IMG/VR virus record: IMGVR_UViG_3300023235_000014 | Strand: one strand, 5' to 3' | Source of the DNA: a virus | Length of the DNA: 64,000 bases | In this document: positions 42,869 to 44,506 of the stretch, piece by piece | How the letters are laid out: every line of letters starts with the position of its first letter | How positions within the stretch are numbered: position 1 is the stretch's first letter | The notes under the pieces: generated by a model | Databases searched by the model: none | Seen by the model: the letters and a program-made list of their open reading frames with translations, nothing else | Told to the model about the DNA's origin: nothing | Made by a program: the position numbers and the translations under genes

Positions 42869-43582
42869 ATGAGCAACAAACGTAGATGGCAACAACTTGC
42901 TGGCATCCTCACCGAGGACGTTGACCGAGAGCCTAGTCTCGTTGGGTCACGCATTGACGTAAAAGATGATGACGAAGGTCGTATGGCCAAGGGCCAATTA
43001 GAACAGATTTTTAGTCAAGCTGATACCTTGCTTGACCTAATGCCAGACGACGCCCAGCTTGAATCATGGGTCCAGAGTAAATTGACCCTGGCTGCCGAAA
43101 TGATTGATGTGGTAACACATTATCTCTTGGACGAATCCCCAGTCGAAGAACAAATGGATGCACACGTTGAAGCGTATGAAGATGAGATGGTTGAAGAAGA
43201 CCTTGATGAGGGCAAACAAAAAGGTCTTTGGGATAACATCCATGCCAAGCGCAAGCGTGGTGAAAAACCAGCTAAGCCAGGCGATGCGGATTACCCAGAC
43301 AAGGAGTCTTGGAATAAAGTCACAAAAGAAAGCACTCTCGAAGAGGCAGAGTATCAAGGGCGCAAGGTCGAATTAAACAAACCTATGCGTGGTGACGTCA
43401 AGAAGTTCAAAGTCTATGTCAAGAACCCTAAAGGTAACGTCGTAAAGGTGAACTTCGGCGACCCTAATATGCGAATCAAAAAGAACAACCCTGAGCGCAG
43501 AAAGTCATTTAGGGCTCGTCACAACTGCGACAATCCAGGGCCGAAGCACAAAGCACGATATTGGTCGTGCAAGAAATGGTAA
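42869..43582 (+). CDS. Type-B-propeptide protein with acidic middle and basic C-terminal domain
   Basis: 'MSNKRRWQQLAGILTE'. C-terminal 'GLWDNIHAKRKRGEKP...KFKVYVKNPKGNVVKVNFGD'. The ORF-track start at 42797 is upstream of the real ATG. Confidence 0.5.
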   Translation: MSNKRRWQQLAGILTEDVDREPSLVGSRIDVKDDDEGRMAKGQLEQIFSQADTLLDLMPDDAQLESWVQSKLTLAAEMIDVVTHYLLDESPVEEQMDAHVEAYEDEMVEEDLDEGKQKGLWDNIHAKRKRGEKPAKPGDADYPDKESWNKVTKESTLEEAEYQGRKVELNKPMRGDVKKFKVYVKNPKGNVVKVNFGDPNMRIKKNNPERRKSFRARHNCDNPGPKHKARYWSCKKW

Positions 43583-43586
43583 TAAA

Positions 43587-43967
43587 ATGATTAATAAAGA
43601 ACGCTGGCAGAAACTTGCTGGCATCGTTCCAACCGATGCCAGCAACATCGCAGAAGGCGACAAGAAAAAACTCAAGGCGGAACTTTCTGAGGGCTTTCAG
43701 AATCTTGGTATGGTCAGCCCAGGAATCATGGGCGGAAACCCATTTGAGGGAACGTCGACTGTAACAAAAGAGCAACACGATGATTATGGCGATTTGCCAG
43801 ACGAGTGGCGGCGGCTGCCCGAAGAGGATCTCTCTGAAGCTATGGATCTTCTTCACAAGGTAGTTGAAGAAGCTTCGACAGGGCCGTTTCATGGGGTTGG
43901 CGAAGGCTCCGAACAAGTCAGCGCTGAATTGATTGACAACATCAAGCATTTTTTGAAGGACAACTAA
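43587..43967 (+). CDS. Small type-B-propeptide protein
   Basis: 'MINKERWQKLAGIVPTD'. Confidence 0.5.
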   Translation: MINKERWQKLAGIVPTDASNIAEGDKKKLKAELSEGFQNLGMVSPGIMGGNPFEGTSTVTKEQHDDYGDLPDEWRRLPEEDLSEAMDLLHKVVEEASTGPFHGVGEGSEQVSAELIDNIKHFLKDN

Positions 43968-43969
43968 TC

Positions 43970-44506
43970 ATGACTAAGATTCTAAAAGAGCGCTGGCAGA
44001 AATTAGCAGGCATCCTTAAGGAACAAAAACTTGGAGATGTTTCCCCAGAATCTATGGATCCTGCTCGGGAAGAAGAAGAGGCATTCAATAGGCAACTTGG
44101 AGATTATCCAGAGACAGCTAGTGAATATGCCAAACAACTCAACTCTAGGAAGTCTGGTTCAGGCTTTAGGCTAGCAGACGACTCAGAACACTGGGATAAG
44201 AGCGGTGTAAAGACGGGCGAAGACCTTGCAAGGTACCTAGCCATCGCTGACCATCGAGATAGTTTCAAGGAGACTTACGGCACAAGGCCTCGTCATATGA
44301 ATTACGATGAGATGTCCATAGAAGAAATTGAAGCTGCCACCCAACGTCTTTTGGATGGAGCAGGAAACGAATTCTGGGATGATGCTGACCCCTGGGAAGG
44401 TGAGGTCGAAATCGTCGACGAAGCCGAACCCAGAGATGAAGGCGGTGACGAACTTGACAAATATGCTGACATCGAATCTGAATGGGACGAGAAACTCAAT
44501 AGATGA
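43970..44506 (+). CDS. Type-B-propeptide protein
   Basis: 'MTKILKERWQKLAGILKE'. Confidence 0.5.
   Translation: MTKILKERWQKLAGILKEQKLGDVSPESMDPAREEEEAFNRQLGDYPETASEYAKQLNSRKSGSGFRLADDSEHWDKSGVKTGEDLARYLAIADHRDSFKETYGTRPRHMNYDEMSIEEIEAATQRLLDGAGNEFWDDADPWEGEVEIVDEAEPRDEGGDELDKYADIESEWDEKLNR

What the first reader, a model, noticed from the sequence alone, without database searches (positions are those of the whole stretch)
42869..44506. Second conserved N-terminal peptide family (type B) on about 10 genes
The peptide is M-x(2-5)-K-R-W-Q-x-L-A-G-I-L-x-E. It begins 25576, 25946, 42869, 43587, 43970, 49717(-), 35808 and the frameshifted 21693. It occurs internally in 34343 and at the C-terminus of 20936. 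It also ends in L/I-x-E. Its cargo domains are unrelated to each other (Dps-like, ART-like, basic domains). Two distinct leader families suggest two targeting or processing classes.
Basis: partly seen in the sequence, partly recalled or inferred. Interest (0 to 1): 0.8.

Follow-up and report, generated by a model that had tools for sequence, protein, structure and literature searches.

The report
Scaffold-derived capsid address tag on phage proteins
A short peptide (…K-R-W-Q-x-L-A-G-I-L-x-E) heads about ten unrelated proteins of a giant T4-like phage and also ends its head-scaffold protein, so it is most likely a removable "address tag" that loads enzymes into the virus head. This is a new, widespread variant of a trick known from phage T4.

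Summary
The motif [KR]-R-[WFL]-[QK]-x-L-A-G-[IL]-[ILV]-x-E occurs 11 times in the window, against 0.02 in shuffles. It is always at a protein end, or at a fused or frameshifted start.

The window is a T4-superfamily, huge-phage-like myovirus with a gp23-family capsid protein.

New here: the same motif is the extreme C-terminus of the putative scaffold gene just upstream of the capsid gene. This holds in the window, in most of 58 relatives (85 C-terminal occurrences overall), in 45 further loci chosen by protease homology, and in cultured phages immuto, Mel-JY01 and RM378. T4 and a cyanophage lack it.

- N-terminal copies start 5-11 residues after Met in all but one case. 35 of 45 are followed at once by [ILVM]-x-E, the T4 gp21 prohead-protease site.
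- Orthologous cargo carries type B, type A, T4-CTS-like or no leader, and homology begins right after the leader.
- The Dps-like and ADP-ribosyltransferase-fold cargos are confirmed.

Best reading: a cleavable capsid-targeting propeptide that copies the scaffold's C-terminal anchor. This is a new variant of the T4 CTS principle. Packaging, cleavage and binding partner are inferred, not shown. "Two processing classes" is not supported.

The parts
42869..43582 (+). Type-B leader protein, 237 aa. Leader MSNKRRWQQLAGILTE is at 42869-42916. It is followed by a disordered linker, a helical hairpin, and a basic C-terminal domain (GLWDNIHAKRKRGE…YWSCKKW).
   Evidence: AF2: helix at residues 3-10, disordered at 17-31, folded from residue 34. 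At least 8000 homologs of the cargo, carrying various leaders. The same domain stands alone, without a leader, in non-T4 phages.
43587..43967 (+). Type-B leader protein, 126 aa. Leader MINKERWQKLAGIVPTD lacks the Glu of the cleavage site. It is a partial paralog of the N-terminal half of the 42869 family.
   Evidence: 31% identity over 139 aa to P0002, a homolog of the 42869 protein. In T4, Asp at the last CTS position blocks processing but not targeting (PMC9026906).
43970..44506 (+). Type-B leader protein, 178 aa, acidic. Leader MTKILKERWQKLAGILKE is at 43970-44023.
   Evidence: No Pfam or PHROG match. Only the leader matches other proteins.
25576..25938 (+). Type-B leader protein, 120 aa. 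Leader MTTKKRWQRLAGILTE.
25946..26536 (+). Type-B leader (MVTTKARLQKLAGIINE) on a Dps-like cargo, 196 aa.
   Evidence: PDB 2d5k Dps, E = 8.5e-5. phrog_3636. Homologs in L025, L023 and L018 keep a B leader; the conserved cargo region starts at residue 18, 66 and 126 in them.
35808..36233 (+). Type-B leader (MTGFTSKRFKELAGLLTE) on an ADP-ribosyltransferase-fold cargo, 141 aa.
   Evidence: AF2 pLDDT 84.7. All Foldseek top hits are ART-fold: KptA/Tpt1, pertussis toxin, Rhs ART toxins, diphtheria toxin, PARPs. Homologs have a B leader, a short MRxFMxIVE leader, or none.
49717..49986 (-). Type-B leader protein, 89 aa. Leader MTRFSKERWRRLAGLLNE is at 49933-49986.
21693..21922 (+). Type-B leader gene interrupted by a frameshift in an A run. 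The zero frame gives MNDITKNDFRS*. The leader (K)RLQELAGLISE continues in the -1 frame. The site contains the slippery heptamer A_AAA_AAC.
   Evidence: Whether this is a sequencing error, a pseudogene or programmed slippage was not resolved.
34343..34837 (+). 164-aa ORF with the motif inside it. The segment from Met 34541 (MKEFSSKRFKELAGLITE) looks like a normal B-leader gene fused in frame to an upstream small domain.
   Evidence: The upstream 67 aa are a separate 84-aa protein in L023.
20936..21685 (+). 249-aa protein ending in …FSRKRWQQLAGIEAI*. This is probably a leader remnant at a gene boundary.
   Evidence: The 63%-identical homolog in L050 ends differently.
11931..14135 (+). Putative head scaffold, in the gp22 position, 734 aa, acidic. 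It has 20 [LI]xE sites. The extreme C-terminus SRWQVLAGIKKGE* (14097-14135) is the type-B motif.
   Evidence: Homologous at both ends to the genes upstream of the capsid gene in immuto, Mel-JY01 and LR756508. The C-terminal motif is present in most of 58 relatives and in 45 loci of an independent sample.
14189..16111 (+). Major capsid protein of the T4 gp23 family, 640 aa. A candidate maturation site LLKE|T lies at residue 60.
   Evidence: Pfam PF07068, 1.6e-79. N-terminus shown. Comparison with T4 FLTE|A.

Best explanation
The type-B peptide is a capsid-targeting propeptide of the T4 CTS kind.

Proposed mechanism:
1. It is a short helix (W, L, A and I/L on one face, an invariant Ala-Gly in the middle) joined to its cargo by a flexible linker.
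2. During prohead assembly it docks the cargo inside the growing shell. It uses the same contact as the scaffold protein's own C-terminal peptide (E-x-x-R-W-x-x-L-A-G-I), which it copies.
3. When assembly is complete, the gp21-type prohead protease cuts after the Glu of [IL]-x-E immediately behind the motif. In the scaffold, the cut is at an L-N-E site about 5 residues in front of the motif.
4. The cargo is thereby freed inside the head. Cargo includes a Dps-like protein, an ADP-ribosyltransferase, basic domains and acidic proteins. It is presumably delivered into the host with the DNA, as T4 Alt and the IPs are.

The scaffold copy is the widespread form and probably the ancestral one. The N-terminal copies are lineage-specific co-options.

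Shown: the motif, its strictly terminal position, its coupling to [LI]xE, its modularity, its presence on the scaffold-position protein, and the T4-type capsid and protease context.

Inferred: packaging, cleavage, ejection, and the binding partner. For the partner, my estimate is about 0.5 for the capsid protein's inner surface or N-terminal region, and about 0.3 for the scaffold core.
For: 1. Position. The strict motif occurs 146 times in L001-L104 plus the window: 85 C-terminal, 56 N-terminal and 5 'internal'. All five internal cases are explained by an alternative start, a frameshift or a fusion. N-terminal copies start 5-11 aa after Met in all but one case (2 aa).

2. Cleavage logic.
- 35 of 45 unique N-terminal leaders have [ILVM]xE directly after LAG[IL].
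- In 40 of 76 unique C-terminal copies, the last [LI]xE lies exactly 5 aa upstream of the motif.
- gp21 cuts after L/I-X-E, and T4 CTSs are 10-19 aa (PMC9026906).

3. Context.
- The capsid protein is gp23-family.
- A gp21-type protease lies about 4 kb upstream of the capsid gene in 57 loci, and next to B-leader genes in L001, L003, L004, L008, L010 and L014.
- Cultured phage immuto has, in order, portal, protease, scaffold (…SRWQKLAGIIK*) and capsid gene, plus two N-terminal B leaders.
- 23 of 24 pattern-hit loci share genes with these phages.

4. Scaffold. The C-terminal motif is present in most of 58 relatives, in Mel-JY01, RM378 and LR756508, and in 45 loci of an independent protease-selected sample.

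5. Modularity.
- An L001 protein with a B leader is 66% identical to immuto35A_175, which has an A leader. The homology starts right after the leader.
- The 42869 cargo sits behind B, A, MKKxEIVNKLxxIISEG and T4-like MKTFKEFLEE leaders. T4 IPII and IPIII start MKTYQEFIAE.
- The same domain has no leader in podophages and siphophages.
- The ART cargo has a B leader, a short MRxFMxIVE leader, or none.

6. Structure. The leader is a low-confidence helix outside the folded cargo.

7. Parallel with T4. T4 Alt is a packaged ART with a propeptide.
Against: - There is no direct evidence of packaging or cleavage for any of these proteins.
- No prohead protease gene is present in the 64-kb window or in its closest relative L025. 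A protease-based scan did not retrieve this lineage.
- The 734-aa 'scaffold' shows no detectable sequence homology to T4 or cyanophage gp22. The assignment rests on synteny, composition and [LI]xE density.
- Ten of 45 N-terminal leaders lack the immediate [ILVM]xE, including 43587 in the finding itself.
- The binding partner is unknown. A proposed resemblance to the capsid protein's N-terminal KWxxGLLEG motif was not significant.
- In the protease-selected sample no N-terminal B leaders were seen, so the leader use is lineage-restricted.
Confidence: 0.7

Rival explanations
1. The motif is a co-assembly element of the scaffolding core rather than a shell anchor. The B helices of the scaffold and of the leader proteins bundle with each other or with other core proteins. 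On this view the tagged proteins are core components, and some may simply be degraded rather than delivered.
For: - In T4 the CTS targets IPs to the gp22 core, and IPs co-purify with gp22 (PMC9026906).
- Leader genes sit inside the head module between portal, protease and scaffold in L003.
- The scaffold itself carries the motif.
Against: - The cargo includes enzymes (ART fold) and a Dps-like protein, which make more sense as delivered proteins.
- A terminal scaffold peptide binding the coat protein is the usual arrangement in other phages (from my own knowledge of P22 gp8 and 80alpha gp46, not checked here). PMC9546572 says only that contacts between capsid-protein N-terminal regions and scaffolding proteins are common in P22, T7, SPP1 and 80alpha.
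- Nothing here separates the two partners.
Confidence: 0.2
2. The motif is a substrate-recognition (exosite) signal for the prohead protease. It marks where to cut, and localisation is achieved by other means.
For: There is tight positional coupling between the motif and an [LI]xE site in both contexts: directly after the motif in leaders, and 5 aa before it in scaffolds.
Against: - The cut lies on opposite sides of the motif in the two contexts, which is awkward for a single docking geometry.
- gp21-type proteases need only L/I-X-E.
- 10 of 45 leaders lack the adjacent site yet keep the motif.
- The cargo domains have no other shared feature that could localise them.
Confidence: 0.07
3. The peptide has nothing to do with the capsid. 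It is a generic N-terminal amphipathic helix (for example membrane association, or an expression or translation-start feature) or a recombination cassette boundary.
For: None specific. Leader genes are scattered through the window among non-structural genes.
Against: - The same motif is the conserved C-terminus of the gene next to the capsid gene in more than 100 loci.
- It is restricted to T4-type phages, while the same cargo is leaderless elsewhere.
- The DNA is not conserved.
- There is no hydrophobic stretch.
Confidence: 0.03

Closest known systems
Capsid targeting sequence (CTS) of phage T4 internal proteins IPI, IPII, IPIII and the Alt propeptide
   Same: - A short N-terminal peptide on otherwise unrelated proteins.
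- It ends in the prohead-protease site L/I-x-E.
- The phage has a gp23-type capsid, and relatives have a gp21-type protease.
- The cargo includes an ADP-ribosyltransferase, like Alt.
- The leader is exchangeable between cargos.
   Different: - No sequence similarity to MKTYQEFIAE.
- It is longer, at 16-25 aa.
- The identical motif also ends the scaffold-position protein, which is not so in T4 (gp22 ends …VYAKVASRF).
- Several leader families coexist in one genome.
- Function is untested here.
C-terminal coat-binding peptide or helix of phage scaffolding proteins (P22 gp8; 80alpha gp46 and SaPI1 CpmB); named from my own knowledge
   Same: A conserved short element at the very C-terminus of the scaffold-position protein, followed by basic residues. 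Scaffold contacts with capsid-protein N-terminal regions are described as common (PMC9546572).
   Different: Here the element has been copied onto the N-termini of many non-scaffold proteins and is paired with a protease site. Binding to the capsid protein is not shown. There is no sequence relation to the P22 or 80alpha elements.
Encapsulin cargo-loading peptides (from my own knowledge)
   Same: A short terminal tag directs diverse cargo, including ferritin/Dps-like proteins, into an HK97-fold shell. The tag can sit at either terminus.
   Different: This is a virus capsid with DNA. The tag is predicted to be cleaved off, the motif is unrelated, and the tag is shared with a scaffold protein.
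Propeptides of head and ejection proteins of giant phages phiKZ, 201phi2-1 and SPN3US
   Same: Many head proteins are processed after Glu by a gp21-related protease in large phages (PMC9026906).
   Different: As far as I know, those propeptides are not one conserved, recognisable sequence family. Here one motif recurs on many cargos and across thousands of metagenomic proteins.

Membership tests
T4-type capsid targeting sequence / gp21-removed propeptide | Short (10-19 aa) N-terminal peptide preceding unrelated mature proteins | tested here: met
   Leaders of 16-25 aa. The motif starts 5-11 aa after Met in all but one case. The cargos are unrelated.
T4-type capsid targeting sequence / gp21-removed propeptide | Peptide ends at the protease consensus L/I-x-E | tested here: met
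   35 of 45 unique leaders have [ILVM]xE directly after LAG[IL]. Most exceptions have an [LI]xE a few residues later. 43587 (VPTD) is an exception.
T4-type capsid targeting sequence / gp21-removed propeptide | Genome encodes a gp23-family capsid protein and a gp21-family prohead protease | tested here: inconclusive
   The capsid protein is present (PF07068, 1.6e-79). The protease is found in 57 related loci and in immuto and Mel-JY01. It is absent from this 64-kb window and from L025.
T4-type capsid targeting sequence / gp21-removed propeptide | Sequence similarity to the T4 CTS MKTYQEFIAE | tested here: not met
   Type B shares only the terminal hydrophobic-x-E. T4-like leaders (MKTFKEFLEE, MRxFMxIVE) do occur on homologs of the same cargos.
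T4-type capsid targeting sequence / gp21-removed propeptide | Peptide is sufficient for packaging and is removed in the head | not testable with these tools
   Needs virion proteomics or fusion experiments.
Scaffold C-terminal shell-binding element | Conserved element at the extreme C-terminus of the scaffolding protein | tested here: met
   …E-x-x-R-W-x-x-L-A-G-[IL] plus 1-4 mostly basic residues, then stop, on the ORF ending 20-80 nt upstream of the capsid gene.
Scaffold C-terminal shell-binding element | The carrier protein is the scaffold | tested here: inconclusive
   It has the gp22 position, an acidic or coiled composition, and 2.7 [LI]xE per 100 aa against a median of 1.4. There is no detectable homology to T4 or cyanophage gp22.
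Scaffold C-terminal shell-binding element | Element binds the capsid protein | not testable with these tools
Encapsulin cargo-loading peptide | Encapsulin shell gene next to tagged cargo, with a known CLP motif | tested here: not met
   There is no encapsulin. The only Linocin_M18 match is a sub-threshold hit (E = 0.078). The shell here is a phage capsid. This is an analogy only.

The most novel reading that the evidence does not exclude
The scaffold's C-terminal shell-anchoring peptide has been copied onto the N-termini of dozens of unrelated enzymes. It would act as a portable, protease-removable address tag, making this a natural cargo-loading system in T4-like and huge phages. Type B would be one of several interchangeable tag families. 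If so, the packaged and injected protein arsenal of uncultured phages could be read from sequence alone, and the tag could be used to load foreign proteins into capsids.
Probability: 0.45. Interest if true: 0.8.

Novelty: new variant of a known kind. Interest (0 to 1): 0.66.

Why it matters
Internal and ejected phage proteins are first-line weapons against host defences (T4 IPI, Alt), but outside a few model phages they cannot be recognised from sequence.

- **A readable tag.** A recognisable tag ending in the protease site would let the packaged proteome be predicted from genomes alone. The tag is present on very many metagenomic proteins: all 24 IMG/VR pattern hits are in-frame terminal copies, and 119 of the 120 best profile hits carry it at the N-terminus. 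This includes huge phages that will not be cultured soon.
- **A testable binding model.** The identity between the tag and the scaffold's C-terminus gives a concrete hypothesis for how targeting works: competition for, or sharing of, one binding site. For the T4 CTS, the reviews read here describe only an affinity for the scaffolding core.
- **Candidate cargos.** The work flags a packaged ADP-ribosyltransferase and a Dps-like protein.
- **An experimental system.** The cultured Flavobacterium phage immuto carries the whole system.

Tried and rejected
- tblastn of a 30-aa leader against cultured phages found nothing; the query is too short for significance.
- megablast of 12 kb of the window against phages gave no match.
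The 46-aa version returned only short proteins (≤81 aa), so it could not list full-length cargos.
- The T4 late promoter TATAAATA has no copy in the window, so co-regulation could not be argued that way.
- I considered that type B mimics the capsid protein's N-terminal KWxxGLLEG motif. A PSSM test gave a mean best score of -10.9, against a control mean of -17.7 and a control 95th percentile of -7.9. This is not significant, so the idea was dropped.
- A fold search of the 42869 cargo against PDB found nothing with E ≤ 0.001. A PDB sequence search for 42869 and 35808 also found nothing.
- The protease search in the window was negative (Pfam, PHROGs, tblastn). A protease-based scan of IMG/VR did not recover this phage's own lineage.
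- Literature searches found the T4, phiKZ and SPN3US background but no description of this motif.
- A chimeric capsid-protein-plus-peptide structure prediction was considered but not submitted. The tool rules exclude non-window sequences, and a single-chain model without a paired alignment would not be informative.
- Secretion signal, DNA-level repeat and chance were rejected. There is no hydrophobic core, the codons differ, and the shuffle expectation is 0.02.
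Full report
**1. What is in the sequence**

The three tandem genes at 42869-44506 begin MSNKRRWQQLAGILTE, MINKERWQKLAGIVPTD and MTKILKERWQKLAGILKE.
- N-terminal at 25576, 25946 and 35808.
- N-terminal on the minus-strand ORF 49717..49986, which starts at 49986.
- On a gene at 21693 that is frameshifted in an A run.
- Inside ORF 34343..34837.
- At the C-terminus of ORF 20936..21685.

The count is eleven copies, against 0.02 expected in shuffles. A back-translated DNA pattern gives 3 hits against 0.00 expected. Codons differ freely between copies, so selection acts on the peptide and this is not a DNA repeat.

**2. What the window is**

- ORF 14189..16111 is a T4 gp23-family major capsid protein (Pfam PF07068, 1.6e-79).
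- There are two tail-sheath paralogs and a baseplate wedge protein.
- The closest records are uncultured huge phages (LR756508 at 484 kb, LR756511 at 595 kb), Flavobacterium phage immuto, Microcystis phage Mel-JY01 and Rhodothermus phage RM378.
- Related IMG/VR contigs reach 461 kb.
- No prohead protease gene lies in the window.

**3. The motif elsewhere**

An exact degenerate DNA pattern for R-W-Q-x-L-A-G-I-[hydrophobic]-x-E hit 24 IMG/VR loci. All hits are in frame; 22 are at an N-terminus and 2 at a C-terminus. Relaxed scans show 1-5 copies per ~10 kb in these loci, often beside type-A leaders. 23 of the 24 loci share genes with immuto-like or window-like T4-type phages.

A profile search of the large protein collection returned 120 listed proteins, and 119 carry the motif at the N-terminus. 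The consensus is MKxQINEIKRMQQLAGIINESQLNE.

Over L001-L104 plus the window, the strict motif occurs 146 times: 85 C-terminal, 56 N-terminal and 5 'internal'. All five internal cases are explained by an alternative start, the frameshift, or a gene fusion. It is therefore a terminal peptide and never part of a protein interior.

**4. The scaffold link (new)**

- In most of 58 relatives of the capsid gene (53-88% identity), the long ORF ending 20-80 nt upstream of the capsid gene terminates in …[DE]RW[AQS]xLAG[IL] followed by 1-4 mostly basic residues.
- The cultured phage immuto has the gene order portal, …, 'prohead core protein serine protease', …, a 413-aa acidic protein ending SEQVSRWQKLAGIIK*, then the capsid gene.
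- Mel-JY01 ends ERMKKLAGIVK*, RM378 ends ERIKRLAGL*, and LR756508 ends SRMQKLADIS*.
- T4 gp22 and a cyanophage gp22 lack the motif.
- In an independent sample of 80 loci chosen by protease homology, the motif occurs 45 times. Every copy is at the C-terminus of a 300-700-aa ORF, and none is N-terminal.

The scaffold copy is therefore the widespread form and probably the ancestral one. N-terminal use is confined to the immuto-like and window-like lineages.

The N- and C-terminal sets share E(-3), R0, W1, L4, A5, G6 and I/L7.

The 'scaffold' label rests on three things: the gp22 position, an acidic or coiled composition with 20 [LI]xE sites, and homology at both ends to the equivalent genes of immuto, Mel-JY01 and LR756508. 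There is no detectable homology to T4 gp22.

**5. Coupling to the protease site**

T4 gp21 cuts after Glu in L/I-X-E, and T4 CTSs are 10-19-residue N-terminal propeptides that target internal proteins to the core (PMC9026906; PMC3012670).

- 35 of 45 unique N-terminal leaders carry [ILVM]-x-E immediately after LAG[IL].
- In 40 of 76 unique C-terminal copies, the last [LI]xE lies exactly 5 residues before the motif (…LNE|GYEAERWAKLAGIK*).
- In both contexts, cleavage would detach a peptide of roughly 15-20 residues from the rest of the protein.
- The capsid protein has LLKE|T at residue 60, matching T4's FLTE|A and ISE|A / VSE|A in Mel-JY01 and immuto.
- gp21-type proteases were found by blastp in 57 loci. 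In six of them the protease lies directly beside B-leader genes. In L003 the head module reads portal, B leader, A leader, B leader, a 628-aa ORF, protease, B leader, scaffold (C-terminal B motif), capsid gene.

**6. The leader is a module, not part of the fold**

- A 194-aa protein in L001 (MAQFINEAKRWQQLAGIITE|IEDN…) is 66% identical over 176 residues to immuto35A_175 (MKKSELVKLIKEELN|IQDN…). The homology begins right after the leader, so a B leader and an A leader have been swapped on one ortholog.
- The C-terminal domain of the 42869 protein has at least 8000 homologs. These carry B leaders, A leaders, a third type (MKKxEIVNKLxxIISEG) and a T4-like MKTFKEFLEE leader. T4 IPII and IPIII begin MKTYQEFIAE.
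- In a podophage (HTVC026P), a siphophage (Kolga) and Roseobacter phage CRP-901, the same domain is a bare 79-90-aa protein with no leader.
- The ART-like cargo of 35808 begins at VTLYHGT. Its homologs have a B leader, a short MRxFMxIVE leader, or none.
- The AF2 models place the leader as a lower-confidence helix: residues 3-10 in 42869 and 4-20 in 35808. In 42869 a disordered stretch follows it; in 35808 a short loop follows it. In both it lies outside the well-folded cargo.

**7. Cargo**

- 25946 is Dps-like (PDB 2d5k, E = 8.5e-5; phrog_3636).
- 35808 has an ADP-ribosyltransferase fold. The model has pLDDT 84.7, and all top Foldseek hits are KptA/Tpt1, pertussis toxin, Rhs ART toxins, diphtheria toxin and PARPs. 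This parallels T4 Alt, a packaged ART with a propeptide.
- 42869 carries a basic domain of unknown fold.
- 43587 is a partial paralog of the N-terminal half of the 42869 family.
- 43970 is an acidic orphan.

**8. Explanation and rivals**

The best reading is a cleavable capsid-targeting propeptide that copies the scaffold's C-terminal anchor (confidence about 0.7 for targeting plus cleavage).

The binding partner is open. The capsid protein's inner face or N-terminal region is favoured, by analogy with scaffold-coat contacts in other phages (PMC9546572). The scaffold core is the main rival, as described for the T4 CTS. A protease-exosite role and a capsid-unrelated role are unlikely.

43587's VPTD ending may mean targeting without cleavage. 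In T4, Asp at the last CTS position blocks processing but not targeting.

**9. Novelty**

The principle is the T4 CTS. The new elements are:
- the sequence family itself;
- its abundance in aquatic metagenomes and its presence in huge-phage relatives;
- the coexistence and interchange of several leader families;
- the identity of the leader with the scaffold-position protein's C-terminus.

I found no paper describing any of this.

**10. Limits**

Everything about function is inferred from sequence. The protease of this particular phage was not seen, the scaffold assignment is positional, and no complex could be modelled.

Noticed in passing
window 8202-9455, 10132-10566, 10860-11366, 49137-49538; variants at 28038, 34849, 48388 and 49979-52039(-): A second (type-A) leader family, MKLTKxQLKEMIRxAVREQL…. 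Three copies sit between the tail-sheath genes and the scaffold. Long tandem runs of such genes lie upstream of the scaffold in huge phage LR756508. Type A replaces type B on an orthologous cargo.
   Followed up: partly
P0014, P0028, P0095, P0246-P0252 (homologs of the window cargos): Further leader families occur on the same cargo domains: MKKxEIVNKLxxIISEG, and short T4-CTS-like MKTFKEFLEE and MRxFMxIVE. All end in hydrophobic-x-E.
   Followed up: partly
window 38184-40922 (-): A 912-aa homolog of the eukaryotic major vault protein (Pfam MVP_shoulder 6.7e-24, Vault_3, Band_7). A 70%-identical copy lies in related contig L023. This is an unusual gene for a phage.
   Followed up: no
window 45392-47512 (-): An actin homolog of the Volactin family (PF25216, 7e-59), interrupted by an intein with a LAGLIDADG domain. 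An intein-less 334-aa homolog lies in L011.
   Followed up: no
window 41012-42028 (-): A phage-encoded glutamine synthetase, 338 aa (Gln-synt_C 1e-18).
   Followed up: no
window 954-4034, 4076-5068, 5166-8180: Two ~1000-aa tail-sheath paralogs in tandem, separated by a GIY-YIG homing endonuclease. A second GIY-YIG/NUMOD endonuclease lies at 30310-31257(-).
   Followed up: no
window 21693-21725: The frameshifted leader gene shifts at ACA_AAA_AAC, which contains the canonical -1 slippery heptamer A_AAA_AAC. A -1 slip would give MNDITKNRLQELAGLISEN. This could be programmed frameshifting, a homopolymer sequencing error, or a pseudogene.
   Followed up: partly
window 32964-34337: A 457-aa protein with an N-terminal ART-PolyVal-like domain and a C-terminal GNAT acetyltransferase, with no recognisable leader. 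A homolog of the 35808 ART domain is embedded in a 602-aa multi-domain protein in L036.
   Followed up: no
window 16311-19806: A Mom-like protein, followed by a 681-aa protein with a TnsA-like nuclease domain and an N6/N4 DNA methylase domain, directly downstream of the capsid gene.
   Followed up: no
window 13551-13630 (scaffold residues 541-566): A perfect (ELDD)n acidic repeat inside the putative scaffold.
   Followed up: no
H30, H33 (BK067786, BK067787); L115, L116, L118: The basic C-terminal domain of the 42869 protein also occurs in Nitrosopumilaceae spindle-shaped (archaeal) viruses and in pelagiphages and roseophages. It is annotated 'HVA1 family' in CRP-901. Its function is unknown.
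   Followed up: partly
L105 7725-8966 (immuto35A_203): The scaffold-position gene of Flavobacterium phage immuto is annotated 'DNA polymerase phi-like protein' in GenBank. This is probably an artefact of its acidic low-complexity region.
   Followed up: partly
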